Notes under the pieces: generated by a model | What the model was told of the DNA's origin: nothing | What the model saw: the letters and a program-made list of their open reading frames with translations, nothing else | The model's database searches: none | Program-made: the position numbers and the translations under genes | Shown here: positions 9,989 to 22,518 of the stretch, piece after piece | How positions within the stretch are numbered: position 1 is the first letter of the stretch | How the letters are laid out: each line of letters begins with the position of its first letter | Assembly: GCA_016205145.1 (NCBI GenBank) | Contig: JACQJH010000002.1 | Location: forward strand, 450,001 to 482,000 | DNA length: 32,000 nt | From: Candidatus Iainarchaeum sp. | GTDB taxonomy: Archaea; Iainarchaeota; Iainarchaeia; Iainarchaeales; JACQJH01 | Direction: 5' to 3'

Positions 9989-10003
9989 CGGGCGAATCGG
10001 CTT

Positions 10004-10161: not shown

Positions 10162-10162
10162 A

Positions 10163-10189
10163 AGCCCATCGAACAAAGTGAGATGGGCT
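10163..10189 (+). terminator. 8-bp hairpin (AGCCCATC-N11-GATGGGCT) directly after tRNA-Cys
   Basis: The stem is perfect and starts 2 nt after the discriminator base. T-rich tracts follow further downstream. Confidence 0.3.
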
Positions 10190-10277
10190 TTGCAGTGAAA
10201 ATTTTGATAAAACTTTTTCCAAAAGTTTTGCTCCCGCATCCGTTTTTTGGAATAAAAAAGCGGTAAGGCAACAGGCT

Positions 10278-10661
10278 TTATTGCCTGCTGCCCATCATGC
10301 CGAAGCCATAGCCGCTTCCGGTGGAGTTACCCATCATCCCGAAACCGTCGCCGTTTCCGGCAGAGTTGCCCATCATCCCGCCGCGGAAGCCCGCTGCGTT
10401 ATGGCAGGGCATCTCATTCCAGTGCTCCTGCATCTCTTCCTGCATTGCGTCAAAAAACTTCTGGTCTGACCAGTTTTCCTTGACTGCTTTTTCCCTTATG
10501 TCGGATATGTCATTCATGTGCTGGAACATTCCTTCAAACCAGCCATTGCCTGCTTCAGATTTTTGCGCGGATTGCGCACTGTTGGCCTGGGCAAGGGAAA
10601 AGCCCGCCATCAGCACTACCAAGAAAGCCACTGCCAAAGCAGCCAGCAAAATTTTCCTCAT
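10278..10661 (-). CDS. small secreted or membrane-anchored protein with a Gly/Met-rich C-terminal repeat
   Basis: The ATG at 10661 is preceded by GGAGGT with a 7-nt spacer. The N-terminal signal/TM segment is MRKILLAALAVAFLVVLMAGFSLAQA. The C-terminus carries GGMMGNSAGNGDGFGMMGNSTGSGYGFGMMG repeats. Confidence 0.6.
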   Translation of the reverse strand: MRKILLAALAVAFLVVLMAGFSLAQANSAQSAQKSEAGNGWFEGMFQHMNDISDIREKAVKENWSDQKFFDAMQEEMQEHWNEMPCHNAAGFRGGMMGNSAGNGDGFGMMGNSTGSGYGFGMMGSRQ

Positions 10662-10668
10662 TCGTAAA

Positions 10669-10674
10669 ACCTCC
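10669..10674 (-). promoter_or_regulatory. Shine-Dalgarno sequence GGAGGT
   Basis: Lies 7 nt upstream of the ATG at 10661 and sits within a possible AAAACC/GGTTTT hairpin. Confidence 0.5.
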
Positions 10675-10804
10675 AAGGTTTTTGGCAAAAAAACGAATTG
10701 CCTTGAATCGGCGAAAAACGCCAAACCAAGAACAGGCTTTTTTGCCATAAGACTTATTGCACGCGGAGGTTATTGTGGGTTGCCGGTTAAACCGTTCAGA
10801 ACCG

Positions 10805-10812
10805 AAAAAAAA
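10805..10812 (-). terminator. oligo-T (T8) terminator after the wHTH gene
   Basis: A T8 run on the minus strand lies 12 nt after the stop codon (10824-10826). This is the typical archaeal termination signal. Confidence 0.45.
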
Positions 10813-10823
10813 CAGCGGCAGGG

Positions 10824-11378
10824 CTATTGGGCGTTTTTGCGTTTTTTTTCCAGGAAAACCTTGTACGTTTTTCCGGTGCGTTCCCTTTGGACAAGGTTTT
10901 TCCGGTCAAGGTTTGAAAGGATTGTGGAAATTTTTGCCTTGCTCCAGCCGAGCCTGAAGCGCAGTGAATCCTGGGTTATTTCGCCGGCTTTTTCCACTTC
11001 ATCCAAAACCTTTTTTTCGCCACCATTCAGTGCCTTTTTCAGGATTTCAAGTTCCTGCTCTTTTGAAATTTTCGCCTTGCGTTCCGGCGCAGGCTTTTTC
11101 CCCGCATTCGGGCCTTGCATTTCAGGTGATTCCATTATGCCGGGACCGATCTTCAGGTAATGCGCGATCGCGAATGCCGCGAGAATTGCCGCCAGGATTG
11201 AAACGGCGTTCAGCAGAACCGTGTTCTGGCCGAATGAAACAGACTGCTGCATCATTCCAATCATTGTCTGCTGCTGTGCGGATGGAAACAAAAAAGCGCT
11301 TGAAACAAAGAACACGGAAACGTATGCCACGACCGCTACTGCGGCTACGGCAAAGAGCTTGGAAAGCTTTGAAACCAT
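10824..11378 (-). CDS. membrane-anchored winged-helix (MarR/ArsR-like) DNA-binding protein
   Basis: Two N-terminal TM helices and a lysine-rich linker precede the wHTH (KKVLDEVEKAGEITQDSLRFRLGWSKAKISTILSNLDRKNLVQRERTGKTYKVFL). Confidence 0.7.
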   Translation of the reverse strand: MVSKLSKLFAVAAVAVVAYVSVFFVSSAFLFPSAQQQTMIGMMQQSVSFGQNTVLLNAVSILAAILAAFAIAHYLKIGPGIMESPEMQGPNAGKKPAPERKAKISKEQELEILKKALNGGEKKVLDEVEKAGEITQDSLRFRLGWSKAKISTILSNLDRKNLVQRERTGKTYKVFLEKKRKNAQ

Positions 11379-11396
11379 AAAAGACTCTTGATTAGT

Positions 11397-11410
11397 CCTT
11401 TTTATTAGTT
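11397..11410 (-). promoter_or_regulatory. TATA-like box (AACTAATAAAAAGG on the minus strand)
   Basis: Centred about 26 nt upstream of the ATG at 11378. Confidence 0.35.
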
Positions 11411-11441
11411 TTTGCTTTCGGCGGGATGTGCGGCAAAAGAA

Positions 11442-12560
11442 TCAGGTATTCCCGGCAAGCTTTTCCCACAGCTCGTTTTCGATTGCAAGGCCTTTTCCTG
11501 ACAGGTTTTCTTTTTCCTGCGGGTCGTTTTCAAGGTCGAACAGTTCGCGTTTTTTCAGAGTCGAATTGTAGATGAGTTTCCATTTGCCGGTGCGGATTGA
11601 TTTCACGTTCGGCGCTTTCGGCGAAGGGGTTGGCCCGCCGAGGCCGCCGGTTTCGGAAAACGCAATGCGGTCGCCTTTTTCCCTGCCTTCAACCAATGGC
11701 AGCAGGCTTTCGCCGTCCATTTTTTCAAAGCCGCTTTTTGCGGAAATGCCCAAATATTCGAGAACCGTGGGCATCAGGTCAATCAGGCGCACCTGCGAAG
11801 GGATTTTTTTTGCAGGAAACCTATTGTCGGGCGAAATGAAAAGCATGAACGTCCTGAGCGTGTAGTCATAGCAGAAACTGCCGTAAACTTTTTCCCCGAC
11901 CCTGTCGCCGAGGCCGATGCCGTGGTCGGAGAAAAAAATTATGAGCGAGTTCTTGTCCAGGCCTTTCCGCCGGATGAGCGCCCACATTTCCCTTATGTAA
12001 GCGTCGCAGTCTTTCAGGTACTCGTCGTATTGCCTGACGTTCTTTTCCTTGTTTTCGAACAGCTCGGGTGAAAAGTCATCGAACTTTTTCATGACGTTTT
12101 TAGTGAGAATCTGCCTGATTTCGTCGAACTGGTAGAAAACGAAAAAAGGCTGTTTCGCGTCCGCAAGCCGTTCAAGCATCTGCAAATGCGCGGCTTTCTG
12201 CTTTGCGTCCTTTTCGTAGTCGTGCACCACTGCATTGTCGAATCCCTGGAAGGGCATTATCAGCTTGTTCGCTATTTCGGCTTCTGTGCGGTAGCCTTTT
12301 TCTTTCAGGTATTGCGCTAACGTGAAAACCCTGTCTTTCCTGAATTGCAGGGTGCCGAAATAGTTGTCGACTCCGTTTTTCCTGCCGTTCATGCCGGAAA
12401 GCACTGCATGCATTGAAGGAATGGTTGAAGGCGAATAGGTTATTGAGTTGCCGAAATACGTTCCATTCTGCGCGAGCTTTTTGAATTCAGGCAGAAGCTC
12501 GGTGCGCTCAAGCCTGACACCGTCAAGCAGGATGAGGATTACATTTGGTTTTTCTTGCAT
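11442..12560 (-). CDS. sulfatase-fold (alkaline phosphatase superfamily) hydrolase/transferase, probably not a true sulfatase
   Basis: Contains NVILILLDGVR, FFSDHGIGLGD and IDLMPTVLEYLGI. The nucleophile region reads YSPSTIPSMHAVLSG, so the C/S-x-P-x-R formylglycine motif lacks its Arg. The ATG at 12560 is preferred. Confidence 0.82.
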   Translation of the reverse strand: MQEKPNVILILLDGVRLERTELLPEFKKLAQNGTYFGNSITYSPSTIPSMHAVLSGMNGRKNGVDNYFGTLQFRKDRVFTLAQYLKEKGYRTEAEIANKLIMPFQGFDNAVVHDYEKDAKQKAAHLQMLERLADAKQPFFVFYQFDEIRQILTKNVMKKFDDFSPELFENKEKNVRQYDEYLKDCDAYIREMWALIRRKGLDKNSLIIFFSDHGIGLGDRVGEKVYGSFCYDYTLRTFMLFISPDNRFPAKKIPSQVRLIDLMPTVLEYLGISAKSGFEKMDGESLLPLVEGREKGDRIAFSETGGLGGPTPSPKAPNVKSIRTGKWKLIYNSTLKKRELFDLENDPQEKENLSGKGLAIENELWEKLAGNT

Positions 12561-12653
12561 GCGAACCAACAAAAATTAAGCAAAAAAAGATTTAAAGCGC
12601 ACTATGGCATTTGCGCGCGGGCAGGATTTGGCGGCAACATGTCCGCATTGCCA

Positions 12654-14264
12654 TCAGACCGCGTACCCCATTTTTCTCAGCTCTTCCCAGACTTCCTCTT
12701 CCTCCTTGCTTGAAGCCTTCTTTTCGGATTTGCCGGGCTTGAACTGGTCGGCGCCGATGTTGGCTTTTTTCACGGGATTCGAGGCGAGCCATTCCTCCGA
12801 AAACACGTCCAGGACCTTTCCCTGGAAATAGGTCGGAATCGCAAGGCCCATGCAGTAAAGTGCTGTCGGTGCGATGTCCATGTTTTTGAAATCCGCCTTG
12901 AAGCCTTTTTTCACGCCTTTTCCGCGGATGATGAAAATGCCCTTGTTGGAATGGTTTGCTGTCCACCTGATTTTGGTGGAAAAGCATTTGCCGAGGCTTT
13001 TGCCTTCAACCGAAACTTCGCCGCACAGGAAGTCTTCCTTGATAGAGGCCTCGCAGTCGGGCAGGCCGGGTTCAAGTTCGGCTATTATGTCCGGCGCGCC
13101 TTTGCCCGGATTGGGGTTTTCGCGCACCGAGGAAAATATTTTCTGGCCTGTGGCGGGGAAAACCGCGCTTTCAAGCAGGGGGATTATTTTTTTCTTTTCC
13201 TGCGCGAAATCCTTTTGGCTTACAATGCCGTGCTCTTCCCTTCCGGCAAGGTTTATTGAAACGCCGCAAACGCCATTCTCGAAATCGTTCTTGAAATACG
13301 CTTTCGTTTTCTGCCAGTCTATTTCCTGGTTGACATGCACCACGGGATTATAGTCCGGCGGGAAAAAGTCCAGAAGGCCGAGTTTCTGCAAAAAGATGTT
13401 CCAGCGAAAAAAGAGACTTGGCCGGATTTTTGAGTAAGCGTGGAAATCGCTCCTGCCGAAACCATGGTCGGACAGGACAATGATTGTGGTGTTTTCTCCC
13501 GCGCCTTTCAGGATTTCGCCCAAAAAGTTGTCCAATGCAATGTAGGCCGCGGGAATTTTGTCCACAAATTTTTCCGCTTCCTGCTTTGAAACCCCGAAAA
13601 ATTGCGGCTCGAAATGCTTCCAGTGGTTGTGCTGTATCACGTTCGCGGACTGCCAGCAGACGCCGAAAAAATCCCATTCATCGGCCTTGAAAAAATGCCT
13701 GACAATGGGGGGAAGGGGAAAGTCCTGCTCGTCAAGGCCTTCAGGAAACCTTTTTTTTAGCAGGCCGCGCAAAAATTTTCCCTTGGCAGTGAAAACCGCC
13801 TGCCTGATTTTCAGGGCAAGGCCTTCCTTTGGATGGACTATGACTTTCCTGCCGGGAACGTAGGCTATGCCCGGCACAACCGTCGACCCGAGCTTTTCGT
13901 TGACGGGCCAGGTGTAAGGCCAGTTGATTACGACCGCATTGCGTCCGTTTCCCTCGACGATTTCCCAAAGCGTGTTTGTGTTCACGTTCTTGCTGTTGTA
14001 AAGGGTTTCGTTCCCTTCCTCGTCCTTGCCTCCGAAATCGGATATTCCGTGGATTTCCTTGGGCACGCCCGTAGCAAGGGTTGTCCAGGCGACGGGTGAA
14101 AGCACGGGATCCGGGCAGAAAAGGTTGCCTGAAGCTCCCTCCACAATCATGCGCCGGAAATTTTGAAGCGTTCCCTGTTCAATGAGCGGCGAGATTATTT
14201 TCCATGTGGCGCCGTCGATGCCGAAAATCAGCACCCTTTTTTTTGCGAAATTCTTTTCTGGCAT
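12654..14264 (-). CDS. type I phosphodiesterase / nucleotide pyrophosphatase family (alkaline phosphatase superfamily) protein
   Basis: Contains VLIFGIDGATW, the nucleophile region PVLSPVAWTTLATGVPKEIHGI, and VLSDHGF. The ATG at 14264 is preferred over the TTG at 14300. Confidence 0.82.
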   Translation of the reverse strand: MPEKNFAKKRVLIFGIDGATWKIISPLIEQGTLQNFRRMIVEGASGNLFCPDPVLSPVAWTTLATGVPKEIHGISDFGGKDEEGNETLYNSKNVNTNTLWEIVEGNGRNAVVINWPYTWPVNEKLGSTVVPGIAYVPGRKVIVHPKEGLALKIRQAVFTAKGKFLRGLLKKRFPEGLDEQDFPLPPIVRHFFKADEWDFFGVCWQSANVIQHNHWKHFEPQFFGVSKQEAEKFVDKIPAAYIALDNFLGEILKGAGENTTIIVLSDHGFGRSDFHAYSKIRPSLFFRWNIFLQKLGLLDFFPPDYNPVVHVNQEIDWQKTKAYFKNDFENGVCGVSINLAGREEHGIVSQKDFAQEKKKIIPLLESAVFPATGQKIFSSVRENPNPGKGAPDIIAELEPGLPDCEASIKEDFLCGEVSVEGKSLGKCFSTKIRWTANHSNKGIFIIRGKGVKKGFKADFKNMDIAPTALYCMGLAIPTYFQGKVLDVFSEEWLASNPVKKANIGADQFKPGKSEKKASSKEEEEVWEELRKMGYAV

Positions 14265-14310
14265 TTCAACCAACAACAAGGCAATACATAGAAATTTCAA
14301 ATTCTTTTAA

Positions 14311-14973
14311 TCATTTGCTTTCCGGCCGGCGGTTTTTTTCAACCAGCATTATGGCGAGGTGCTTCAGGAGGGGGTGGATTACGAAAAACGTTTCGCCTTT
14401 TTGCGTGTCCTGCGGGGTTTCCGCGAAAAAGCCTTTTTCGGCAAAGCCCTTCACCGCCTGCACCAGAGTTTCGGCCCTAGCGTGATTGTCGAAGAAATTG
14501 TCGATGTCGGTTGTCTGCGGCAGGCCGAAGCTTTTGCGGCAGACGATGTTGCCCTTGTCGATTCCGTCAGCGAGGAAGAAGGCTGTTGCGCTCACGTCGC
14601 TTTCGGCGATGATGCTGTAATAGAAGCACGTGCTTCCCCTGAAATCCGGCAGCCTTCCCGGATGGACGTGCAGGAATTTTTTTCCGCTGGAAAGCATTTC
14701 CTTGCGTAGAATGCCTCCGCCGGAAAAGATGAAAAAATCCTGGCTTGCGAGTTTCACTGCTTCAACGGTTCCGGGCGAGTTGACGTCATGCGATGGCACT
14801 TCAAAGAAGGGGATTTTGAGTTTTTCAAGCAGTGCCTTTTCTTCCGCGTTGCTTCCTGCCTTTGCCTGCAACAGGACCGCAAATTCCGGCAGGAGTTTGT
14901 TCGCGGCAAGCGCGTTCAGGTAGGCTTTTGCCCTCGGCCCGGGAAAGACGAGAATTGCGAGGTTTTTCACCAA
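14311..14973 (-). CDS. formyltransferase-fold (Formyl_trans_N-like) protein
   Basis: HVHPGRLPDFRG aligns with the HPSLLPxxRG loop, and GIDKGNIV aligns with the DxGxDTGxI loop. The Asn normally two residues before the His is itself His here. The gene overlaps its upstream neighbour by 7 nt. Confidence 0.68.
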   Translation of the reverse strand: MVKNLAILVFPGPRAKAYLNALAANKLLPEFAVLLQAKAGSNAEEKALLEKLKIPFFEVPSHDVNSPGTVEAVKLASQDFFIFSGGGILRKEMLSSGKKFLHVHPGRLPDFRGSTCFYYSIIAESDVSATAFFLADGIDKGNIVCRKSFGLPQTTDIDNFFDNHARAETLVQAVKGFAEKGFFAETPQDTQKGETFFVIHPLLKHLAIMLVEKNRRPESK

Positions 14974-15725
14974 AGCGGAACACCTTTTTCCGGGAAGAGT
15001 TTTTGCGCCAGCTCCTTTTCAAGCAGGAGCGAGGCAAGGCAGAGCTGCGTTTCACGCACGGAAAGTTTTTGCACGTCGAGCGAGCAGATGAAGTCATTGA
15101 GTTTCAGCGCAACGTTCAGGAATTTCAGGTTGCCGGATTTTCCGAAGAACAGAAGGCATGCGAGTGAAAGCGAGGCATAGTGTTCAACGGCGTCAAACTT
15201 GCCCGCCGCTTCCGAAACCCTGAAACCGGCGCGGTATTCCGCGAAAACCTTTTTTGAGACCTCGAAGCTTTTCACGAAACCGGAAAGGCAGATGTAAACT
15301 TTTTTTTCCTCCGCTGCGCCGGCATTCTTATGTCTGCCGGACAGCGCAAGAATGCATGCCGGCAGGGCTTCTTCAGTGCGGATTGCTGCCTGCGGGAACT
15401 GCGTGAAAAAAATTTCGGGCGAAGCGTTGCCGGAAAAAAAGGTTTCCAAGCTTTCCGGCCGGAATGGTTTGGCCTTTTCCCCGGAATTTTTTTCAAGCGC
15501 GGCAATCATGCCTTTCCGCGCATGCACGAACGCATCGAGAAAAGCTTTGCCTTCAAACTTTGAAAACGAGTATTCGGGCGGCTGTTCAAGCCAGCCTTTT
15601 TTCGCGAAAGCGTAGGCAAGCATTGGCAAGAATAAGCCCGCAAAAGCTTTTTTAACTGCGCAATGCAAAAAAGCAAAAAGCCTGATTCGGGCGGCAAAAG
15701 GCAAAATAAGCCGTTTTTGGGGCAT
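14967..15725 (-). CDS. hypothetical protein, first gene of the minus-strand operon
   Basis: This is the C-terminal roughly 250 aa of the 484-aa track ORF and has protein-like composition. The rest of that ORF is antisense to the 1000-aa plus-strand gene. The ATG at 15725 lies 26 nt from a TATA-like box. I recognise no family. Confidence 0.5.
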   Translation of the reverse strand: MPQKRLILPFAARIRLFAFLHCAVKKAFAGLFLPMLAYAFAKKGWLEQPPEYSFSKFEGKAFLDAFVHARKGMIAALEKNSGEKAKPFRPESLETFFSGNASPEIFFTQFPQAAIRTEEALPACILALSGRHKNAGAAEEKKVYICLSGFVKSFEVSKKVFAEYRAGFRVSEAAGKFDAVEHYASLSLACLLFFGKSGNLKFLNVALKLNDFICSLDVQKLSVRETQLCLASLLLEKELAQKLFPEKGVPLW

Positions 15726-15803: not shown

Positions 15804-18800
15804 ATGAAGCAGAAGATTTGGATAAACAAGAGCAACGGCCAGCTTTGCGTGACCGTGCCCAAGGACTCGGGCATGAGGGACGGGATGTTTGTCGACATCA
15901 GGCAGGCCAAAATCGAAAAAGTTGTTTACACTTCGGTTGTCGCGGACCTGTTTCATTACGGCATACTCAACCTGCTGAAGACCGCGCAGGCAATGGGCGA
16001 CATGCACGTCTGCGGCGTGCAGACGGACGGGGCGGCGGAACAGTACAGGGGAAAACCAGTCACTTCCCTGAAGGAACGCCTGGCAGTAATCCAGAGCCTC
16101 AACTGCGTCGACCGCGCCGTGGTGCAGAAAAGCCCGGACCCCACTGAAAATTTGCAGAAACTGCACGACGAATTTCCGGGCGCGGAAATCATACTCGTTT
16201 ACGGTTCCAACTGGAAGCAGGTGCCCGGCAAGGATTTTGTCGAAAGCATCCGCGGAAAGGTGGTGCAGCCGGAATTTTACGACAAGCTGTCGGAGCCGAA
16301 AATCTATTCCTCGCTTGCGGAAAAGTACAGGCAGGCTTACGGCGATTTCAGCGATTTTACCGAAAGGTTCAGGGTAAAAAACGTGGTTTATTTCGACGAC
16401 AAGGATGACAAATCCGGGCACATCATTTCAACCAAGGCGGATACGCTGCGCGCGCTCCAGCCCGCGCTGAGGCATTCGCGCATAGAAAAAACTTTCGTGT
16501 TCACGGAACAGGAATGGGAGCGGTCGCCTGGACAGGTCGTAAGGGAAATCGCAAAGGAATTCTCGGAAGGCAGGATTGTCGTGAGAAGCTCGGCCGTCAA
16601 CGAGGATTCATTGCACAGGTCCGCTGCAGGCCATTACCACAGCGAACTCAACGTCAACCCGAAAAATGTCAAGCAGACCGAAGCCGCCATAGAAAAAGTG
16701 GTGAAATCCTATTCCGAAAAGGGCGACAAGAATCCGGAAAACCAGGTTCTGGTGCAGAGCCAGGCGAAAAACGTGAAAATGAGCGGCGTGATTTTCACGC
16801 GCGAAATCGGGTCGAATGCGCCGTATTACACCATAAACTTCGATGACACCACTGACAGCACTGACAGGGTCACAAAGGGCGAGGAAACCAAAGCAGTGAG
16901 GATTTCAAGGTTTTTGCCTGCGCGCGATTTTCCGCAGAAATGGTACAAATTGCTCACGGCAGTGCAGGAAATAGAATCCGTGATACCGGAAATACCGCTG
17001 GACATAGAGTTTGCCGTCGACTCGGATGAAAACGTAATAATTTTCCAGGCAAGGCCGCTGGCGGCAAACGCCACTCTCGGCACCAAGAAGGACAAAATCG
17101 TGGAAGACGCAATTGCATCGGGAAAGGCGGGCGTTGCAATGCTGTTGAAACCGCAACCGCACCTCTGCGGAAAAACCGATGTCCTGAGCGACATGTCGGA
17201 CTGGAATCCGGCTGAATTGCTTGGCGACAGAACGAAACCGCTGGACTATTCGCTTTTCAGGCTGCTGATAAGCGATGGCGTCTGGCACAAGGCGAGGGAA
17301 AGCCTCGGCTACTGGAAATTCCCGGAAGACGAGGATTTGTGCCATTGCATTGCCAACAAGCCTTTTGTCAGCGCAAGAAACAGCTTCAACTCATTCTGCC
17401 CTGAAAGCCTTGCGAAAGGCGTGAAAGAAAAGCTCTGCCAGTTCAGCCTGCATAAGCTTTCACGGCAGCCGGAACTGCATGACAAGGTCGAATTCGAAGT
17501 CTATTACACGTGCCACGACCTTGGCTTCGCGAAAAGAAGCGCGGAACTGCTCGAAGAAGGATTTTCGCAGGCCGAAGTCGGCAGGCTAAAGGAAAGCCTT
17601 GCCGAACTGACAAACGCAATCGTGGCGAACCACGAAAAAACAATCTCGGATGACATGGCTGACGCGGAAAAAATGGGCAAAAAACGGGAAGCGGTTCTCG
17701 CAAGGGCCGCGAAGGAAAAGGACGCGTTCAGGCTTATCGGCTTGGCGGGCGAACTGCTTGCTGACTGCAGGGAACTTGGCACGCTGCAGTTCTCGAGGCT
17801 TGCGCGCATGGCGTTCATTGCAAAAGCCAACCTGAAGGCGCTTGCGGCAGAAAAACTCATGTCGCAAGAGCAATACAACGATTTCCTGAATTCGATTGAA
17901 ACCGTGGCAACGGAACTGAACCGGGACTTCGTTTCACTGCTTGAAGGCAAAACCCCGAAGGACGAATTCCTTAAAAAATACGGGCACCTGAGGCCGGGAA
18001 CATTCGACATCACGGCAACGCGCTACGACAAAAATCCATCGCTCATAAGCGACGCGGGAAACGCCGCGAAAAACGCGTTCGCGGCCGAAAAGAAAAAATT
18101 TTCAATCGATGAAAAGGCGCTCCGCAAAATTTCGGAAAGGCTGGAGGCGGATTGCCTGAAATTCTCTGCGGAAACGCTTTTCGCTTTCGCGCGCAAAAGC
18201 ATCGAGGCGAGGGAAAAATCCAAGTTCGAGTTCACGAAAAACCTGAGCGCGGGCCTTGAACTTGTTGCGGAGGCCGGCGAGAAACTGGGGTTCACTAGAA
18301 AGGAAATGTCGTACCTTGAAATTGCCGAAATCACCGTGAAGGCGAAGGAAACCGCTGCGGAAAAAACCAAATCGGATTGGAAGAAAAAAATCGCGGACAG
18401 GCAGTTCGAGGAGGAAGCGTTCAGCCTTCTCAGCCTGCCGCCGCTGCTGTTCTCGCCGCTCGACATTGAAATCGTGCCAAGCTATGTGGCAAGGCCCAAC
18501 TACATCACTGGCAAAAGGATTGCCGCCGAACTGTTCCATTTGTACAAGTTTGGCAGGGATTCGGTCTTCGACCTGTCCGGAAAAATCGTCGCGCTTGAAA
18601 ACGCCGACCCGGGCTACGACTGGATTTTCACGAAAAATCCGGCAGGCCTTGTCACGAAATACGGCGGGGTTTCATCGCACATGTCAATCCGCTGCGCCGA
18701 ATTCGGCATTCCCGCGGCAATCGGGTGCGGCGAACTGTTGTTCGAAAAAATCAGGAAAGCTGAAAGGATTTCATTGGATTGCAGGGCGAAAAGCGTGTCG

Positions 18801-18806
18801 TTCTGA
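15804..18806 (+). CDS. multidomain PEP-utilising-family kinase: AbrB-like, cytidylyltransferase-like, PPDK-type ATP-grasp and phosphohistidine swivel domains (candidate glutamine-kinase-like enzyme)
   Basis: The N-terminus KIWINKSNGQLCVTVPKDSGMRDGMFVDI looks AbrB/SpoVT-like. The TagD-like block is VVYTSVVADLFHYGILNLLKTAQAMGD...VCGVQTDG...ERLAVIQSLNCVD. The PPDK_N signature is VVRSSAVNEDSLHRSAAGHYHSELNV. The C-terminus GYDWIF...KYGGVSSHMSIRCAEFGIPAAIGCG is a mobile His domain. There is no PEP/pyruvate TIM-barrel domain. Confidence 0.85.
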   Translation: MKQKIWINKSNGQLCVTVPKDSGMRDGMFVDIRQAKIEKVVYTSVVADLFHYGILNLLKTAQAMGDMHVCGVQTDGAAEQYRGKPVTSLKERLAVIQSLNCVDRAVVQKSPDPTENLQKLHDEFPGAEIILVYGSNWKQVPGKDFVESIRGKVVQPEFYDKLSEPKIYSSLAEKYRQAYGDFSDFTERFRVKNVVYFDDKDDKSGHIISTKADTLRALQPALRHSRIEKTFVFTEQEWERSPGQVVREIAKEFSEGRIVVRSSAVNEDSLHRSAAGHYHSELNVNPKNVKQTEAAIEKVVKSYSEKGDKNPENQVLVQSQAKNVKMSGVIFTREIGSNAPYYTINFDDTTDSTDRVTKGEETKAVRISRFLPARDFPQKWYKLLTAVQEIESVIPEIPLDIEFAVDSDENVIIFQARPLAANATLGTKKDKIVEDAIASGKAGVAMLLKPQPHLCGKTDVLSDMSDWNPAELLGDRTKPLDYSLFRLLISDGVWHKARESLGYWKFPEDEDLCHCIANKPFVSARNSFNSFCPESLAKGVKEKLCQFSLHKLSRQPELHDKVEFEVYYTCHDLGFAKRSAELLEEGFSQAEVGRLKESLAELTNAIVANHEKTISDDMADAEKMGKKREAVLARAAKEKDAFRLIGLAGELLADCRELGTLQFSRLARMAFIAKANLKALAAEKLMSQEQYNDFLNSIETVATELNRDFVSLLEGKTPKDEFLKKYGHLRPGTFDITATRYDKNPSLISDAGNAAKNAFAAEKKKFSIDEKALRKISERLEADCLKFSAETLFAFARKSIEAREKSKFEFTKNLSAGLELVAEAGEKLGFTRKEMSYLEIAEITVKAKETAAEKTKSDWKKKIADRQFEEEAFSLLSLPPLLFSPLDIEIVPSYVARPNYITGKRIAAELFHLYKFGRDSVFDLSGKIVALENADPGYDWIFTKNPAGLVTKYGGVSSHMSIRCAEFGIPAAIGCGELLFEKIRKAERISLDCRAKSVSF

Positions 18807-18842: not shown

Positions 18843-19559
18843 GTGAAACCGATGATTTCAGCGCACTTGAGGAACCTTGCAAGAATTCGCGGGAAAATTG
18901 CATCCGGGGAACCTGTAAAAATCGGGGTTTTTTGTTCCGGCAACAGCGGAAGGTCGCCTCTTGCGGAACACGCACTGCGCGCCGAATTGCAGGCGCTGGG
19001 AATTCCCGCCGAGGTTTTTTCCTTCGGGGTCAGCGTTACGCCTTCAAGAATCATACCGACAAATGCGGGTGCATCTGAAAGGACAATAGCTTATGGCGTG
19101 GAGCACGGCTATGCTGAAATTGCAGGACACCAGCGCACTTACGTTGACGATGCAAAAAGGGACATTGCCCAAGCTGACCTGCTTTTGGGAATAAGCCCGG
19201 AGCACAGCGCAACGCTTGTGCGCAGCATAGTTGACGGCGAATCGAATCCAGGGTCGAAGGAGGCGCAGCAGAGGATTGCAGAAAGGCTTGCGCGCATCTG
19301 GACCCTTAAAGGCTTTGCCAACAGAACCGACTGGCAGGGCGCATTCGAGCCACTTGTTCGGGCGATCGCAGGAGGGGTTTCACAGAAGCGCGCTGTGCAG
19401 AACCCGGATTCTTTGCCGAAAACGCCTGAAGGAGATGCGGAATACTTGCGGATAATGCAGGACATTGAAAGAACCGCAAAAAGGGCCGCGCGAAGAATTG
19501 CCGGAAAACGCGGAAAGCCGGCAAGACCACACAGCGCGCAGCATGGTGGACGACGGTGA
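18843..19559 (+). CDS. low-molecular-weight phosphotyrosine phosphatase / ArsC-fold protein
   Basis: The P-loop VFCSGNSGRSP matches C-x5-R-S. A basic C-terminal tail is present. The start is either the GTG at 18843 or the ATG at 18852. Confidence 0.72.
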   Translation: MKPMISAHLRNLARIRGKIASGEPVKIGVFCSGNSGRSPLAEHALRAELQALGIPAEVFSFGVSVTPSRIIPTNAGASERTIAYGVEHGYAEIAGHQRTYVDDAKRDIAQADLLLGISPEHSATLVRSIVDGESNPGSKEAQQRIAERLARIWTLKGFANRTDWQGAFEPLVRAIAGGVSQKRAVQNPDSLPKTPEGDAEYLRIMQDIERTAKRAARRIAGKRGKPARPHSAQHGGRR

Positions 19560-20257
19560 AAAAAATGATTTGCCTTATTTCGCAACGAAGGAACCAGAAC
19601 AGGTACGGCGCGTATCTGGACGCGCTTGAAACCTCTTACGTGACTTTTTTCGAGGGCCTGGGCGTTTCGCTTGTTCCAGTTTCAAATGAAAGCGTGCGCG
19701 TCAGGAAAATGTTCGACGAATTCAAGGCGCATGGTGTCATACTGACCGGCGGGGAAAACGTCGATTCAAAGGTTTTCGGCGAACCGCCAATCAACCCGGC
19801 CGGCATCGCGGTTGAGCGCGACGCCGTTGAAAAAATACTTGTCGGGGAAGCAATGAAAAGGAAGCTGCCGGTGCTTGGCATTTGCAGGGGCCTGCAGTTT
19901 TTGAACGTGCATTTCGGCGGCAGGCTCTCGCAAAGCGTCAAGGAAGAGTTTGGCGGCCATGCCGGAACGCAGCATGAAATCATGGTCGTTGACGCAGGCT
20001 TTGAAAAATATCTCGGCAGGAAAACCCTGCGGGTCAATTCTTTCCACAACCAGGGCGTGCCGGAAAAGCTCTTGTCAAAGGAGCTTAGGGCGTTTGCGAT
20101 GACCGAAAACGGGCTTGTGGAGGGCTTTTACCATCCTGCAAAAGCCGTGCTTGCAGTGCAATGGCACCCTGAAAGGAAAAGCCCGGATGTTGAGGCAAAC
20201 GAAAAGATTGCCGGAATTTTTTTGGAAAAAAAGTTTTTCTGGCTTGACCGGAAGTGA
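19556..20257 (+). CDS. class I glutamine amidotransferase-like / peptidase C26 gamma-glutamyl hydrolase
   Basis: Nucleophile elbow LGICRGLQFLN and His-Glu pair VQWHPER. The gene overlaps the upstream stop (GTGA). An alternative ATG lies at 19565. Confidence 0.85.
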   Translation: MKKMICLISQRRNQNRYGAYLDALETSYVTFFEGLGVSLVPVSNESVRVRKMFDEFKAHGVILTGGENVDSKVFGEPPINPAGIAVERDAVEKILVGEAMKRKLPVLGICRGLQFLNVHFGGRLSQSVKEEFGGHAGTQHEIMVVDAGFEKYLGRKTLRVNSFHNQGVPEKLLSKELRAFAMTENGLVEGFYHPAKAVLAVQWHPERKSPDVEANEKIAGIFLEKKFFWLDRK

Positions 20258-20278: not shown

Positions 20279-21076
20279 ATGGTGAAAGCAATCATTCTTG
20301 CGGCAGGCATGGGAACAAGGCTGAGCAAATACACCAAGGATTTGCCTAAAGGCATGCTTGATTTCATGGGAAAGCCGCTTGTCAAATGGCAGGTTGACGT
20401 TTACAAAAAAATGGGCGTCGACGACGTCATTGTCATAAGGGGTTTTGCCGCAGACAAAATAAATTTTTCCGGTGTCAGGTACTATGAGAACAAGGATTTT
20501 GCCAACACGAACATGGTCGAAACATTGTTCTGCGCTGAAAAGGAACTTGAAGGAGAAGTGCTCGTTTCCTATGCCGATGTTTTGTTCGAACCGAAGGTTT
20601 TGAAGAAGGTTCTTGACTCGAACGCCGACATCGGTGTCACGGTCGACCTCGCATGGAAGGACTACTGGACCGCAAGGCTCGGCTCTTTCGAACTGGACAC
20701 TGAAAGCCTGGGCTTTGACGACAGCGGCGCGATAACCGGGCTTGGAACGGACAGCCCGCCGATTGAAGAGATTGACGGAAGGTATGTCGGCCTGCTGAAG
20801 TTCTCGAAAAAAGGCGTTGAGCAGGCCAGGAAGGTCTACCATGCGGGCAGGAAAGGCTTTCTGGGAAAGCCCTGGGGGCCGTCCGGAAAGGTTTTCCAGA
20901 AGGCTTACATGACGGATCTGCTGAACAAGTGCATTGAAGCCGGAAACCGGGTTGAAGCAATAAGGATCGAGCGCGGCTGGCTCGAATTCGACACCAACGG
21001 GGATTACGAGAAAATGATGCAATTGGAAAAGGCAGGCGGGCTCAAAAGGTTTTTCGATTTGAATGCCTTGAAATGA
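20279..21076 (+). CDS. LicC-like nucleotidyltransferase (candidate cytidylyltransferase)
   Basis: N-terminal KAIILAAGMGTRLSKYTKDLPKGML, followed by YADVLF, VDLAWKDYW, YVGLLKFS and AYMTDLL blocks. These are typical of phospho-headgroup (choline / 2-AEP / phosphoglutamine) cytidylyltransferases. Confidence 0.82.
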   Translation: MVKAIILAAGMGTRLSKYTKDLPKGMLDFMGKPLVKWQVDVYKKMGVDDVIVIRGFAADKINFSGVRYYENKDFANTNMVETLFCAEKELEGEVLVSYADVLFEPKVLKKVLDSNADIGVTVDLAWKDYWTARLGSFELDTESLGFDDSGAITGLGTDSPPIEEIDGRYVGLLKFSKKGVEQARKVYHAGRKGFLGKPWGPSGKVFQKAYMTDLLNKCIEAGNRVEAIRIERGWLEFDTNGDYEKMMQLEKAGGLKRFFDLNALK

Positions 21077-21118: not shown

Positions 21119-22252
21119 CTACGAAAGCGATTTGAAAAGCCGCAGGTACTTGTCAACGGTTTTTTCGATTGTGAAATTTTCAAGCACGCGCGCCCTGCCT
21201 TTTTTTCCCAAACGCCCGGCTTTTTTTTCGTCAAGCAGCAGTTCCCGCACTGCTTCCGTGAACTGGAGAGTGCTGCCGGTTTCGCAAAGTATGCCGGCAT
21301 CCCCCACAACTCCGGGGATTGCCGCGGTGTTTGACGCCACAACCGGCTTTCCGCAGGCCATTCCCTCCGCAAGAATCGTGCCGAATGTTTCGTAATAGCT
21401 CGGGTGCAGGATAATGTCGCACTGATTGAGCAGTGCAGGGAGTTCCGGGTGCGGAACGCGCGGCAAGGCAATCACATCCGTTCCGAGGCGGATCGCGTTC
21501 TGTTCCAGTTTTTTCCGGAATTTTTCAAAATCGCTTCCCGCTGCAATCATGCGCAGTTCAGGAAAATCCTTCCGCAGGCTTATGAACGCGTCAACTGCTA
21601 TGTGCGCGCCTTTCCTGAAGCTGTGCCCTCCGCTGAAAAAAATTGTTTTGCGCTTGCGGCCGGCCGCATTGCCTCCGGGCGAGAATTCTTTTGTGTCCAC
21701 GCCGTTCGGAATGACCGTTATGGGCTTTCCGGAGAGCTTTTGCGTCTGCGCTTTTTCGCTTTCGCTGGGCACGACTATTTGCGTGCAATTTTTCATCGCC
21801 ATGTTTTCGAAGAAAATGCGCGAATTGTCCTTGAGCCTGTCGAAAGCAGGCTGTTCATTGTTGCCGAGACCGCCGGCAAACCTTTGCAGCAGCATTTTGG
21901 AGGAGAAAACGCGCGGCGTTTCCGAGAAATGCTTTTCAAGCTTGAACAGCAGTGCGCCTTCAATGTCCTGCGAGTTGATTATGCCTGGTTTTTCCCTGCG
22001 GAGAACGGAAAGGCCTTTGAGGGCCAGAGGAAAAGTGCGCAGCCGGAAATCGTCGTGCGGAACGGATAGCGCCCTGAAAACCCTGATTCCGCCAACGTCG
22101 TCATTGGCGGGGCGCTTCGGGCTGCCGTTGGCGAGCACGAAAACTTCCGCTTTTTCCGCCACGCCCCTGACGATGTTGTGGATGGTCGGATAGGCGCCGA
22201 AGGACATTTTTTCCTTTTCATAGAAGAAGCTTGAAACGAAGCAGACTTTCAT
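21119..22252 (-). CDS. GT-B glycosyltransferase (glycosyl transferases group 1 / CAZy GT4-like)
   Basis: The C-terminal region reads HPSYYETFGTILAEGMACGKPVVASNTAAIPGVVGD (E-x7-E region). The ATG at 22252 (MKVCFVSSFF) is preferred. Confidence 0.85.
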   Translation of the reverse strand: MKVCFVSSFFYEKEKMSFGAYPTIHNIVRGVAEKAEVFVLANGSPKRPANDDVGGIRVFRALSVPHDDFRLRTFPLALKGLSVLRREKPGIINSQDIEGALLFKLEKHFSETPRVFSSKMLLQRFAGGLGNNEQPAFDRLKDNSRIFFENMAMKNCTQIVVPSESEKAQTQKLSGKPITVIPNGVDTKEFSPGGNAAGRKRKTIFFSGGHSFRKGAHIAVDAFISLRKDFPELRMIAAGSDFEKFRKKLEQNAIRLGTDVIALPRVPHPELPALLNQCDIILHPSYYETFGTILAEGMACGKPVVASNTAAIPGVVGDAGILCETGSTLQFTEAVRELLLDEKKAGRLGKKGRARVLENFTIEKTVDKYLRLFKSLS

Positions 22253-22275
22253 CGGAAAGACTAATGGGTTTTTGG

Positions 22276-22285
22276 CAATATTATT
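22276..22285 (-). promoter_or_regulatory. TATA-like box (AATAATATTG on the minus strand)
   Basis: Centred about 29 nt upstream of the ATG at 22252. Confidence 0.35.
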
Positions 22286-22518
22286 CTTGCGGTGCAAACA
22301 CCGGAATAACCTATACATAATGAATTTGGCTTTTGTCGGCTGCGGGCAACCCGGATGAACGGCGGGGGAGGGTCAGGAGTTCCCTAGAACTGGGGAGGGG
22401 GCAAAACCCCCTCCGCGGTTCGGAATAAAACCTTTTTAAATGTTTAACCCGAATAGATGTAGTAATCGAAGCTGATTTTTGTCATGCTTTTCCGCCTTTG
22501 GGCAAATAGTGGTTTTTC

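What the first reader, a model, noticed from the sequence alone, without database searches (positions are those of the whole stretch)
15804..18806. Unusual 1000-aa domain fusion: AbrB-like, degenerate TagD-like cytidylyltransferase, PPDK ATP-grasp and swivel-His domains
- The first ~35 residues (KIWINKSNGQLCVTVPKDSGMRDGMFVDI) look like an AbrB/SpoVT swapped-hairpin domain, which is normally a DNA-binding or antitoxin module.
- Residues ~40-170 align with glycerol-3-phosphate cytidylyltransferase. However, the HxGH signature reads FHYGI and the RTEGISTT region reads YDKLSEPK. The domain may therefore bind CTP or a CDP-ligand without catalysing transfer, or may use altered chemistry.
- The remainder is a PPDK_N ATP-grasp, a long helical linker and a C-terminal mobile His domain (GGVSSHMS). 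There is no PEP/pyruvate TIM barrel, so this is not a second PEP synthase.
- Fusing a cytidylyltransferase-like module to the kinase, while a separate LicC-like enzyme is also in the operon, suggests substrate channelling or product sensing.
Basis: partly seen in the sequence, partly recalled or inferred. Interest (0 to 1): 0.68.

Follow-up and report, generated by a model that had tools for sequence, protein, structure and literature searches.

The report
Cytidylyltransferase-fused glutamine kinase, phosphoramidate operon
This 1000-residue archaeal protein is a glutamine-kinase-type enzyme (first step towards a rare phosphorus-nitrogen sugar decoration known from Campylobacter) with an extra cytidylyltransferase-like head; the fusion is common in uncultured archaea and many bacteria, but this copy has lost a catalytic histidine.

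Summary
The ORF (15804-18806, +) is real and intact. It comes from a Candidatus Diapherotrites (DPANN) MAG.

**Kinase body.** Residues 202-999 match NCBIfam PRK05849 end to end (821 bits, cutoff 501). IMG labels this family "glutamine kinase" (Cj1418 type). The body has an ATP-grasp, a conserved helical substrate domain (not a linker) and a swivel-His domain (His959). Its closest solved fold is rifampin phosphotransferase.

**Operon.** Kinase, C26 hydrolase and LicC-like nucleotidyltransferase lie in the order I recall for Cj1418, Cj1417, Cj1416. This order holds in nearly all of 80 related loci.

**Cytidylyltransferase (CT) head.** Residues 39-178 have a true cytidylyltransferase fold (Fom1 CyTase, TM 0.83).
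- The fusion is not rare. It occurs in more than 100 protein clusters across DPANN archaea and many bacterial phyla.
- HYGI is lineage-specific: 104 of 111 homologs keep HxGH.
- The domain is still under strong purifying selection (dN/dS 0.065).
- Intact-HxGH fusions sit near CDP-X phosphotransferases (LicD, TagF-like, CDP-alcohol type) in 31 of 53 loci. Degenerate-motif and unfused loci instead tend to carry a sulfatase-family gene, as this window does.

**AbrB claim.** It is not statistically supported.

**Verdict.** This is an uncharacterised variant of a known pathway enzyme. The role of the CT head is unresolved.

The parts
15804..15914 (+). N-terminal 37-aa beta module (MKQKIWINKSNGQLCVTVPKDSGMRDGMFVDIRQAKI). 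Among the proteins and loci examined it was seen only in DPANN-type archaeal records. AbrB-like by eye only.
   Evidence: Present in 42 of 120 homologs. W6, N8, N11, Q13, L14, C15, T17, P19 and G27 are nearly invariant. dN/dS is 0.049 against the 78% relative. The AbrB tests were weak or negative.
15918..16337 (+). Cytidylyltransferase-fold (HIGH-type) domain, aa 39-178. The motif is HYGI (15954-15965) instead of HxGH.
   Evidence: Pfam PF01467, 32.7 bits. rfaE_dom_II, 61 bits. Foldseek: Fom1 CyTase 5x3d at E 1.7e-10 and TMt 0.83, plus TagD and HldC. 104 of 111 homologs keep HxGH. dN/dS is 0.065.
16338..16424 (+). Flexible linker, aa 179-207.
   Evidence: AF2 pLDDT is below 50 for aa 179-207. 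Length varies among homologs. It has the highest dN/dS in the protein, 0.21.
16425..17123 (+). ATP-grasp (PPDK_N-type) nucleotide-binding domain of the kinase, aa 208-440. The VVRSSAxNED motif is intact.
   Evidence: PPDK_N hit. Covered by the NF004508 match. K211, R261, S262, S263, E267 and D268 are invariant. Foldseek finds RPH and other ATP-grasp enzymes.
17124..18443 (+). Central helical domain, aa 441-880. It is the predicted substrate (L-glutamine) binding domain, not a linker.
   Evidence: It lies inside the 821-bit NF004508 match. Invariant residues include W467, N468, P469, E471, W494, D560, K561, E563, R668, H728, R730, R803, E804 and K807. The body aligns structurally with the three-domain rifampin phosphotransferase.
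18444..18806 (+). Swivel phospho-histidine domain, aa 881-1000 plus the stop codon. The catalytic His959 is encoded at 18678-18680 in GGVSSHMS.
   Evidence: PF00391, 46 bits. H959 is invariant. It aligns with the GGxTxH histidine of PEP synthase 2OLS.
18843..19559 (+). LMW-phosphatase/ArsC-like gene (CX5R loop FCSGNSGRS). It is an operon insertion private to this genome.
   Evidence: Pfam LMWPc at E 1.2e-6. Absent from 80 related loci and from the syntenic relative L081.
19556..20257 (+). Peptidase_C26 / class-I amidotransferase-type hydrolase. Candidate gamma-glutamyl-CDP-amidate hydrolase (Cj1417-like).
   Evidence: PF07722 at 3.6e-39. Its best NCBIfam family is NF045546 (gamma-glutamyl-CDP-amidate hydrolase) at 77 bits, below the 250-bit cutoff. 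CRGLQ (Cys110) and HPE are intact. It lies just downstream of the kinase in nearly all of the 80 loci, directly adjacent in most.
20279..21076 (+). LicC-like NTP_transf_3 nucleotidyltransferase. Candidate phosphoglutamine cytidylyltransferase (Cj1416-like).
   Evidence: PF12804 and PF00483. Best PDB match is LicC 1JYK, then PntC 6pd1. The GMGTRL signature is intact. It is conserved after C26 in about 70 of 80 loci.
14967..15623 (-). Conserved unknown protein of about 190-218 aa, transcribed divergently from the kinase.
   Evidence: No Pfam or NCBIfam hit. Homologs lie next to the cassette in at least 13 loci, paired with the formyltransferase-like gene.
14311..14973 (-). Formyl_trans_N-like protein, a recurrent cassette neighbour.
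   Evidence: PF00551 at 1e-6. tblastn hits of 1e-33 to 1e-60 beside the cassette in many loci.
12654..14300 (-). Phosphodiest (nucleotide pyrophosphatase/phosphodiesterase family) protein, 548 aa. Candidate donor-cleaving enzyme or transferase.
   Evidence: PF01663 at 8.6e-27. Syntenic in L081, and a homolog is present in L083.
11442..12572 (-). Sulfatase-family (alkaline-phosphatase superfamily) protein, 376 aa. Candidate phospho-group transferase.
   Evidence: PF00884 at 1.9e-27. It recurs in unfused and degenerate-CT loci: 10 of 25 and 4 of 6, against 3 of 53 intact-HxGH loci.
21119..22318 (-). GT4 glycosyltransferase, convergent with the operon. It marks a surface-glycan context.
   Evidence: PF00534 and PF13439.

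Best explanation
The gene encodes a two-part enzyme of a nucleoside-diphosphoramidate (P-N bond) pathway that decorates surface glycoconjugates.

**Kinase body (aa 208-1000).** It is an L-glutamine-kinase-type enzyme of the Cj1418 / PRK05849 family.
- ATP bound in the ATP-grasp pyrophosphorylates or phosphorylates the swivel His959.
[quoted passage not shown] The product is labile N5-phospho-L-glutamine.

**Downstream genes.**
- The LicC-like nucleotidyltransferase (20279-21076) converts phosphoglutamine plus CTP to CDP-glutamine.
- The C26 hydrolase (19556-20257) removes glutamate and leaves cytidine diphosphoramidate.
- Alkaline-phosphatase-superfamily enzymes encoded divergently (the sulfatase-like and Phosphodiest genes) then probably use this donor.

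**Cytidylyltransferase (CT) head (aa 39-178).**
- In most family members it is a catalytically competent cytidylyltransferase.
- Its activity is tied to CDP-X phosphotransferases (LicD, TagF-like, CDP-alcohol type). Most simply, it turns a phospho-product of the fused kinase into a CDP-activated donor for them.
- In this genome's lineage the second catalytic histidine is replaced (HYGI) and no such phosphotransferase is nearby. The head has therefore probably lost most transferase activity.
- It is kept under strong selection, presumably as a nucleotide-binding, dimerising or scaffolding module of the kinase.

**Shown:** family membership, folds, motif states, synteny, co-occurrence and the selection pattern.
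**Inferred:** all substrates and the role of the head.
For: **Kinase identity**
- NF004508 at 820.8 bits (cutoff 501) over aa 202-999.
- IMG names four fused homologs of 44-47% identity 'glutamine kinase'.
- His959 and the ATP-grasp RSS/ED residues are invariant.
- His959 aligns with the PEP synthase phospho-His.
- The closest solved fold is the three-domain rifampin phosphotransferase, E 6e-22.

**Pathway**
- The adjacent C26 protein's best NCBIfam family is gamma-glutamyl-CDP-amidate hydrolase. Its Cys/His/Glu triad is intact.
- The order kinase, C26, NTP_transf_3 is conserved in about 70 of 80 loci from archaea and bacteria. An APS-kinase-like (Cj1415-like) gene follows in about 14.
- The Cj1415-Cj1418 pathway is described in PMC11800397, PMC10971088 and PMC6429109. 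A Borg preprint infers the same cluster in archaeal elements.
- Fusions link the parts: APSK-CT-kinase in P0056 and kinase-C26 in L076-L080.

**CT head**
- The fold is confirmed.
- HxGH is intact in 104 of 111 homologs.
- Both HxGH histidines are described as critical for catalysis in this superfamily (PMC6060094).
- Loss of the second His arose at least three times: window/P0002, P0026 and P0023/P0035.
- dN/dS of the head is 0.065, against 0.12-0.18 for the kinase ATP-grasp and central domains.
- CDP-X phosphotransferases lie within 10 kb in 31 of 53 intact-HxGH loci, 0 of 6 degenerate-motif loci and 2 of 25 unfused loci. The sulfatase-family gene shows 3 of 53, 4 of 6 and 10 of 25. The phosphotransferase genes are often directly adjacent to the cassette.
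- LicD-CT fusions exist.
- The same head is also attached to a second type of His-swivel kinase.
Against: - No direct comparison with the Cj1418, Cj1416 or Cj1417 sequences was possible.
- The C26 protein scores well below the NCBIfam equivalog cutoff (77 against 250 bits).
- The LicC-like protein is named only 'phosphocholine cytidylyltransferase family' or 'choline kinase' by its sources.
- The stand-alone LicC-like transferase is present in fused and unfused loci alike. A second phosphoglutamine cytidylyltransferase would therefore seem redundant, and the head's substrate is unknown.
- The RTEGISTT motif is altered in the whole subfamily, so textbook residue roles may not transfer and HYGI might still be active.
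- The co-occurrence statistics are not corrected for phylogeny and cover only 10 kb on each side.
- The sulfatase and Phosphodiest roles are guesses.
Confidence: 0.6

Rival explanations
1. The head is an active cytidylyltransferase in this protein too. It cytidylylates the kinase's product directly (phosphoglutamine to CDP-glutamine) by substrate channelling. HYGI is a tolerated variant in a subfamily whose active site is already atypical.
For: - dN/dS of 0.065 shows that the domain is functional in some sense.
- The whole subfamily already departs from RTEGISTT (consensus YYxRLSxFKI) and from the aromatic residue before the motif.
- The first His, the Gly and the ER/D/N residues are all conserved in the window.
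- A flexible 29-aa tether would suit a hand-over.
Against: - The second His is kept in 94% of homologs and is described as critical in the superfamily.
- Every lineage that lost it also lacks the CDP-X phosphotransferases that accompany intact heads.
- A stand-alone LicC-like transferase is present to do this step.
Confidence: 0.2
2. Throughout the family, the head is a regulatory nucleotide sensor (CTP, CMP or CDP-amidate) that gates the ATP-expensive kinase. It is not a catalyst.
For: - The LicC-like transferase is always present, so catalysis by the head seems redundant.
- The head is tethered by a disordered linker.
- It survives loss of a catalytic His under strong constraint.
- The same head sits on a second kind of His-swivel kinase.
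Against: - Near-universal retention of HxGH and other active-site residues is unnecessary for mere binding.
- The correlation of intact motifs with CDP-X phosphotransferases and the LicD-CT fusions point to a product that is consumed.
Confidence: 0.12
3. The head makes an unrelated CDP-alcohol (for example CDP-glycerol or CDP-ethanolamine) for a separate phospho-alcohol decoration of the same glycan. The fusion merely reflects co-expression.
For: - The closest characterised relatives act on glycerol-3-P, phosphoethanolamine, hydroxyethylphosphonate and heptose-1-P.
- LicD, TagF-like and CDP-alcohol transferases classically use such donors.
- LicD-CT fusions exist.
Against: - The fusion to this particular kinase is conserved across archaea and many bacterial phyla, and the triple APSK-CT-kinase fusion also exists. 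This argues for the same pathway.
- No kinase or synthase for an alternative phospho-alcohol is consistently present in the loci.
Confidence: 0.08

Closest known systems
Campylobacter jejuni Cj1418 L-glutamine kinase (EC 2.7.3.13) and the Cj1418-Cj1417-Cj1416-Cj1415 cytidine diphosphoramidate pathway
   Same: - ATP-grasp plus substrate domain plus swivel-His architecture, with no PEP barrel.
- Membership of the PRK05849-type family, and the IMG label 'glutamine kinase' on close homologs.
- Gene order kinase, C26 hydrolase, LicC-like transferase.
   Different: - An extra N-terminal 37-aa module and an extra cytidylyltransferase-fold domain.
- No APS-kinase-like (Cj1415) gene in the window.
- An inserted LMW-phosphatase-like gene.
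- Sulfatase and Phosphodiest neighbours. From my own recollection, not a tool result, the Campylobacter transferases and methyltransferases are Cj1419-Cj1422, and no homolog search for them was run.
- An archaeal (DPANN) host.
- No direct alignment to Cj1418 was done.
Rifampin phosphotransferase (RPH; PDB 5HV1, 5FBS)
   Same: It is the best solved structural match for the kinase body: ATP-grasp, helical substrate-binding domain and C-terminal swivel His domain.
   Different: Only 13-16% identity. NCBIfam RIF_Ptrans_rph scores 29 bits against a cutoff of 999. The substrate domain is different.
Fom1 cytidylyltransferase domain (PDB 5X3D) and GCT/ECT/CCT/HldC HxGH cytidylyltransferases
   Same: The same Rossmann-like fold (TMt 0.83 to 5X3D, 0.75-0.83 to TagD). 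Like Fom1, it is an N-terminal CyTase domain fused to another pathway enzyme.
   Different: The window reads HYGI instead of HxGH. The subfamily has YYxRLSxFKI where the family has RTEG(I/V)ST(S/T). The substrate is unknown.
CDP-amino-acid and CDP-alcohol decoration systems (C. difficile Type A flagellar glycan CD0241-CD0244; LicC/LicD; TagD/TagF)
   Same: The logic is kinase or phosphotransferase, then cytidylyltransferase, then CDP-X phosphotransferase. Intact-head relatives of this protein sit next to LicD, TagF-like or CDP-alcohol transferases.
   Different: The window itself has none of these transferases. The C26 hydrolase step points to a diphosphoramidate donor rather than a CDP-amino-acid donor.
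PEP synthase / pyruvate phosphate dikinase
   Same: They share the PPDK_N ATP-grasp and the PEP-utilizers mobile His domain.
   Different: The fused protein has no PEP/pyruvate-binding TIM barrel. A real PEP synthase (860 bits to NF005057) lies at 23388-25934.

Membership tests
L-glutamine kinase family (Cj1418 type; NCBIfam NF004508 / PRK05849) | Full-length match to the family model above its curated cutoff | tested here: met
   820.8 bits against a cutoff of 501. It covers aa 202-999 and model positions 5-786 of 789.
L-glutamine kinase family (Cj1418 type; NCBIfam NF004508 / PRK05849) | ATP-grasp, helical substrate domain and C-terminal swivel domain with a conserved phospho-carrier His; no PEP/pyruvate barrel | tested here: met
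   Pfam domains. AF2 model with pLDDT 89.4. Foldseek to RPH. H959 is invariant and aligned to the PEP synthase His.
L-glutamine kinase family (Cj1418 type; NCBIfam NF004508 / PRK05849) | Operon partners: gamma-glutamyl-CDP-amidate hydrolase-type C26 protein and LicC-like cytidylyltransferase | tested here: met
   However, C26 scores only 77 bits against the 250-bit equivalog cutoff, and no source names the NTP transferase as phosphoglutamine-specific.
L-glutamine kinase family (Cj1418 type; NCBIfam NF004508 / PRK05849) | Direct homology to the characterised Cj1418 sequence, and that Cj1418 belongs to PRK05849 | not tested
   The Cj1418 sequence was not obtainable with these tools. The link rests on IMG 'glutamine kinase' names for homologs and on my recollection.
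L-glutamine kinase family (Cj1418 type; NCBIfam NF004508 / PRK05849) | [quoted passage not shown] | not testable with these tools
   A biochemical assay is needed.
HxGH cytidylyltransferases (Pfam PF01467; GCT/ECT/CCT type) | Rossmann-like cytidylyltransferase fold and Pfam match above the gathering score | tested here: met
   PF01467 at 32.7 bits against GA 21. Foldseek 5x3d at E 1.7e-10 and TMt 0.83.
HxGH cytidylyltransferases (Pfam PF01467; GCT/ECT/CCT type) | HxGH signature with both histidines | tested here: not met
   The window reads HYGI. 104 of 111 homologs keep HxGH.
HxGH cytidylyltransferases (Pfam PF01467; GCT/ECT/CCT type) | RTEG(I/V)ST(S/T) signature | tested here: not met
   The window reads YDKLSEPK. 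The subfamily consensus is YYxRLSxFKI, and only the Ser (S163) is nearly invariant. The signature is as given in PMC6060094.
AbrB/MazE/SpoVT swapped-hairpin domain (Pfam PF04014) | Significant profile match to the family | tested here: not met
   The window peptide gives no PF04014 hit. Two of six homolog peptides score 14-16 bits against GA 24.7. A profile search against PDB gives AbrB entries at E 0.26-0.35. hhalign gives 9.5% probability.
AbrB/MazE/SpoVT swapped-hairpin domain (Pfam PF04014) | Swapped-hairpin beta-barrel formed by a dimer | not testable with these tools
   The monomer AF2 model shows only 2-3 short strands with pLDDT 63-86. No separate model or fold search of the module was possible.
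PEP synthase / PPDK | C-terminal PEP/pyruvate-binding TIM barrel (PF02896) | tested here: not met
   There is no PF02896 hit. PEP synthase models score 50-56 bits against cutoffs of 598-883.
Rifampin phosphotransferase | Match to the RPH equivalog model | tested here: not met
   NF041857 scores 29.3 bits against a cutoff of 999. The resemblance is structural only.

The most novel reading that the evidence does not exclude
The cytidylyltransferase-kinase fusion marks a second, uncharacterised branch of P-N bond glycoconjugate biosynthesis that is widespread in DPANN archaea and many bacteria.
- In this branch the fused head helps make a CDP-activated P-N donor, either CDP-glutamine or cytidine diphosphoramidate.
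- LicD, TagF-like or CDP-alcohol phosphotransferases use that donor directly. It needs no 3'-phosphorylation, unlike the Campylobacter route.
- In lineages that switched to sulfatase-family transferases, such as this window, the head has become a pseudo-enzyme kept as a structural or regulatory part of the kinase.
Probability: 0.3. Interest if true: 0.75.

Novelty: new variant of a known kind. Interest (0 to 1): 0.55.

Why it matters
A review in the held library says that phosphoramidate (P-N) decorations of surface sugars have so far been identified only in Campylobacter (PMC6429109). The pathway has been worked out only there.

This locus and its relatives show that the core kinase, hydrolase and cytidylyltransferase cassette occurs in at least 560 stretches of species-representative genomes. 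These include DPANN archaea, Nitrosopumilus, gut Bacteroidota and Firmicutes.

In the sampled loci, most copies of the kinase carry an uncharacterised cytidylyltransferase head. Whether that head keeps its catalytic motif tracks the type of downstream transferase.

This yields directly testable predictions:
- which donor LicD or TagF-type enzymes use;
- whether the HYGI head is a pseudo-enzyme.

It also points to unrecognised P-N chemistry on the surfaces of uncultured archaea.

Tried and rejected
- **Raushel-lab primary papers.** I tried to read PMC5629633, PMC6643271 and PMC5938751 for Cj1418 residue numbering and distribution. None is held.
- **C. jejuni locus.** I hoped the genome-contig scan would bring it in for direct alignment. 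It was not among the 80 loci kept.
- **Database naming of the LicC-like protein.** I searched its homologs for a 'phosphoglutamine cytidylyltransferase' name. Only 'phosphocholine cytidylyltransferase family protein' and 'choline kinase' appeared.
- **AbrB identity of aa 1-37.** Pfam scans of six peptides, a profile search against PDB and hhalign all gave no significant support.
- **'The head replaces Cj1416.'** Rejected. The LicC-like gene is present in 50 or more fused loci, and it is missing more often in unfused ones.
- **'The head replaces the APS-kinase step.'** Rejected. APS-kinase-like genes occur in fused and unfused loci, and one protein fuses APSK, CT and kinase.
- **Frameshift or assembly artefact.** Rejected, because the architecture recurs in independent assemblies.
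- **A decaying domain.** Rejected by dN/dS.
- **Closest non-fused relatives of the head.** The representative-library search gave mostly fragments, tandem CT proteins and LicD-CT fusions. No named function emerged.

Full report
**1. Observation**

The window holds one uninterrupted ORF from 15798 (TTG) or 15804 (ATG) to 18806 on the + strand. It is 1000 aa from the ATG.

An identical protein is on record from a Candidatus Diapherotrites MAG, a DPANN archaeon (P0001). The neighbouring genes fit an archaeal chromosome: RIO kinase, topoisomerase VI A and B, archaeal uL16, aRF1, TruD and diphthamide synthase.

Pfam finds three domains:
- CTP_transf_like at aa 48-136;
- PPDK_N at aa 244-304;
- the PEP-utilizers mobile domain at aa 926-994.

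There is no PEP/pyruvate barrel. A genuine PEP synthase lies at 23388-25934.

- HYGI at aa 51-54 (15954-15965);
- YDKLSEPK at the RTEGISTT position;
- GGVSSHMS with His959.

**2. What the kinase body is**

Residues 202-999 match NCBIfam NF004508 (PRK05849) from end to end. The score is 820.8 bits against a curated cutoff of 501. This is an 'equivalog' model that still carries the name 'hypothetical protein'.

Four homologs with the same architecture and 44-47% identity are named 'glutamine kinase' by IMG.

An AlphaFold model built on 85 homologs has pLDDT 89.4. Its best solved match is rifampin phosphotransferase (E 6e-22). That enzyme has an ATP-grasp, a helical substrate-binding domain and a C-terminal swivel histidine domain.

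It carries many invariant residues, including W467, N468, P469, E471, W494, D560, K561, E563, R668, H728, R730, R803, E804 and K807.

His959 is invariant. It aligns with the phospho-carrier histidine of PEP synthase. The ATP-grasp VVRSSAxNED motif is intact.

**3. The operon**

On the + strand the kinase gene is followed by three genes:
- an LMW-phosphatase-like gene (18843-19559);
- a Peptidase_C26 hydrolase (19556-20257, with a 4-base start/stop overlap);
- a LicC-like NTP_transf_3 gene (20279-21076).

The C26 protein's best NCBIfam family is gamma-glutamyl-CDP-amidate hydrolase, the Cj1417 function. Its score of 77 bits is below the 250-bit cutoff. Its Cys110/His204/Glu206 triad is intact.

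The characterised Campylobacter pathway has four enzymes (PMC11800397, PMC10971088, PMC6429109):
- Cj1418, glutamine kinase;
- Cj1416, phosphoglutamine cytidylyltransferase;
- Cj1417, the hydrolase that gives cytidine diphosphoramidate;
- Cj1415, the 3'-kinase.

A scan of 185,579 species-representative genomes found at least 560 stretches encoding relatives of the window protein. The 80 best were kept as loci.

By tblastn, the C26 gene lies just downstream of the kinase in nearly all of the 80 loci. The LicC-like gene follows in about 70. An APS-kinase-like gene is within 10 kb in about 14.

This is the order I recall for Cj1418, Cj1417, Cj1416 and Cj1415. That recollection is mine and is not a tool result.

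A preprint on Borg elements reached the same reading for an archaeal cluster by structure comparison.

**4. How unusual the fusion is**

It is not unusual. More than 100 protein clusters carry PF01467 + PF01326 + PF00391 with 38-50% identity to the window protein.

The genome scan found the CT-kinase form in DPANN archaea and in these bacteria, among others: Halanaerobium, Parabacteroides goldsteinii, Prevotellaceae, Lachnospiraceae, Treponema, Kiritimatiellae, Desulfuromonadales and Gastranaerophilales.

A kinase-only form of about 800 aa occurs in Nitrosopumilus, some Pacearchaeota, Planctomycetota, Omnitrophota, Leptospira and Cohnella.

Other fusions of the same parts exist:
- APS kinase-CT-kinase (P0056);
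- kinase-C26 (L076-L080).

An assembly or frameshift artefact is excluded.

**5. The cytidylyltransferase head**

The fold is confirmed. The N-terminal model has pLDDT 81.5. Its best matches are:
- the Fom1 cytidylyltransferase domain (5X3D, E 1.7e-10, TM 0.83 on the target);
- TagD;
- HldC.

By sequence the nearest solved relatives are human ECT and Fom1.

The head joins the kinase through a disordered, variable 29-residue linker.

The key correction concerns the motif. Among 111 homologs with the head:
- 104 keep HxGH;
- only the window, its 78% relative P0002 and the unrelated P0026 read HxGI;
- P0023 and P0035 read HxGY;
- a few read NxGH.

P0026's near relatives have HYGH. The second histidine was therefore lost at least three separate times.

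The altered second motif is a trait of the whole subfamily, with consensus YYxRLSxFKI.

Both histidines are described as critical for catalysis in this superfamily (PMC6060094).

The HYGI domain is not decaying. Between the window gene and P0002's gene, dN/dS by region is:

| Region | dN/dS |
|---|---|
| N-terminal module | 0.049 |
| CT head | 0.065 |
| Swivel His domain | 0.086 |
| ATP-grasp | 0.12 |
| Central domain | 0.18 |
| Linker | 0.21 |

dS is about 1, so these values are approximate.

**6. What the head is for**

I clustered the ORFs of the loci into families and annotated them. Three unrelated families that transfer phospho-X from CDP-X donors cluster with fused loci:
- CDP-alcohol phosphatidyltransferase;
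- TagF-like glycerophosphotransferase;
- LicD.

They are often directly adjacent to the cassette, for example TagF-KIN-C26-NTP3 or KIN-C26-NTP3-LicD.

I then recounted with tblastn, adding the loci of P0002, P0026 and P0023:

| Locus type | CDP-X transferase within 10 kb | Homolog of the window's sulfatase-family gene |
|---|---|---|
| Intact HxGH head | 31/53 | 3/53 |
| Degenerate motif | 0/6 | 4/6 |
| No head | 2/25 | 10/25 |

All four loci that lost the second histidine carry the sulfatase-family gene.

An earlier ORF-level count that misclassified a few loci gave a Fisher test of p = 2e-5 for head against CDP-X transferase. None of these counts is corrected for phylogeny.

Two further observations bear on this:
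- Relatives of the head are fused to LicD fragments in other proteins.
- The same N-module-plus-head unit (57% identical) is attached to a second kind of His-swivel kinase.

The head does not simply replace the LicC-like enzyme or the APS-kinase step, because both occur with and without it.

My reading is as follows. Catalysis by the head is coupled to CDP-X phosphotransferases. In the window's lineage, which uses alkaline-phosphatase-superfamily enzymes instead, the head has lost a catalytic residue. It persists as a constrained non-catalytic part of the kinase. The substrate of intact heads remains unknown.

**7. The AbrB-like claim**

The 37-residue N-terminal module is real. It is strongly conserved. 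Among the proteins and loci I examined it appeared only in archaeal records, mostly DPANN (42 of 120 homologs).

Tests for AbrB/MazE identity were weak or negative:
- no PF04014 hit for the window peptide;
- 14-16 bits for two of six homolog peptides, against GA 24.7;
- AbrB entries at E about 0.3 in a profile search of PDB sequences, where designed double-psi barrel proteins scored best at E 0.005 through a GD-box-like 'GDxVEV' stretch;

I could not model or fold-search the module on its own.

**8. Comparison with known systems, and novelty**

The kinase body is a member of a known family. The operon is a homolog of a known pathway.

The fused head, the N-module, the inserted LMW-phosphatase-like gene (private to this genome) and the sulfatase/Phosphodiest neighbours are departures from the Campylobacter system.

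In the held literature I found no description of the CT-kinase fusion or of its link to CDP-X phosphotransferases. Only the Borg preprint touches archaeal versions of the pathway.

I rate the finding a new variant of a known kind, of moderate interest. The architecture is already visible in databases. Its wide distribution and the motif/transferase correlation make concrete experiments possible.

**9. Limits**

- No direct alignment to the Campylobacter proteins was possible.
- All substrates are inferred.
- Co-occurrence was measured in 80 loci, within 10 kb on each side.
- I had no access to model coordinates or PAE, so I could not judge docking of the head on the kinase.

Noticed in passing
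window 18843-19559 (+): An LMW-phosphatase/ArsC-like gene with an intact CX5R loop (FCSGNSGRS) is inserted between the kinase and the C26 hydrolase. Its end overlaps the start of the C26 gene by 4 bases. It is absent from 80 related loci and from the 78%-identical syntenic relative, so it is private to this genome. Its role is unknown.
   Followed up: partly
window 14311-14973 (-) and 14967-15623 (-): A Formyl_trans_N-like protein and an unannotated protein of about 190-218 aa form a pair. The pair recurs beside the kinase cassette in at least 13 archaeal and bacterial loci, whether fused or unfused. They are probably unassigned members of the pathway.
   Followed up: partly
window 11442-12572 (-) and 12654-14300 (-): Sulfatase-family and Phosphodiest-family genes flank the cassette. 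Homologs of the sulfatase-family gene accompany kinase-only loci (Nitrosopumilus, Pacearchaeota) and every locus whose head lost the second HxGH histidine. This suggests an alternative transferase module.
   Followed up: partly
L076-L080 (Clostridia, Bacteroides; kinase at about 10000-13030): Here the kinase is fused at its C-terminus to the C26 hydrolase (about 1010 aa). No LicC-like, CT or APS-kinase gene is nearby, and the neighbourhood is different (uracil phosphoribosyltransferase, DedA-like). The function may be different.
   Followed up: partly
P0243, P0249, P0253, P0262 (proteins from the representative library): Proteins of 1128-1208 aa carry the same N-module-plus-head unit (up to 57% identical). 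Their body is different: a degenerate PRK05849-type ATP-grasp (VVKSS), a PRK08296-like His domain, and a canonical PPDK_N domain at the C-terminus.
   Followed up: partly
L083 8252-9391 and 13349-13786, 18255-18704 (locus of P0023, HYGY variant): An ATP-sulfurylase-like gene lies directly upstream of the fused kinase, and two HIT-family genes are nearby. From my own knowledge, not a tool result, HIT-family enzymes are known to act on nucleoside phosphoramidates.
   Followed up: no
P0056 (1143 aa): A triple fusion of APS-kinase-like domain, cytidylyltransferase head and kinase. From my own knowledge, the layout recalls the APS kinase plus sulfurylase arrangement of PAPS synthase.
   Followed up: no
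P0001 (= window 15804-18803): The protein database lists a precomputed hit to PF27448.1 for this protein only. That model is not in the local Pfam copy, so I do not know which region it covers.
   Followed up: no
window 23388-25934 (+): A genuine PEP synthase (NF005057, 860 bits, with the PEP-utilizers_C barrel) lies 4.5 kb downstream. It is a paralogous user of the same ATP-grasp and swivel-His modules.
   Followed up: yes
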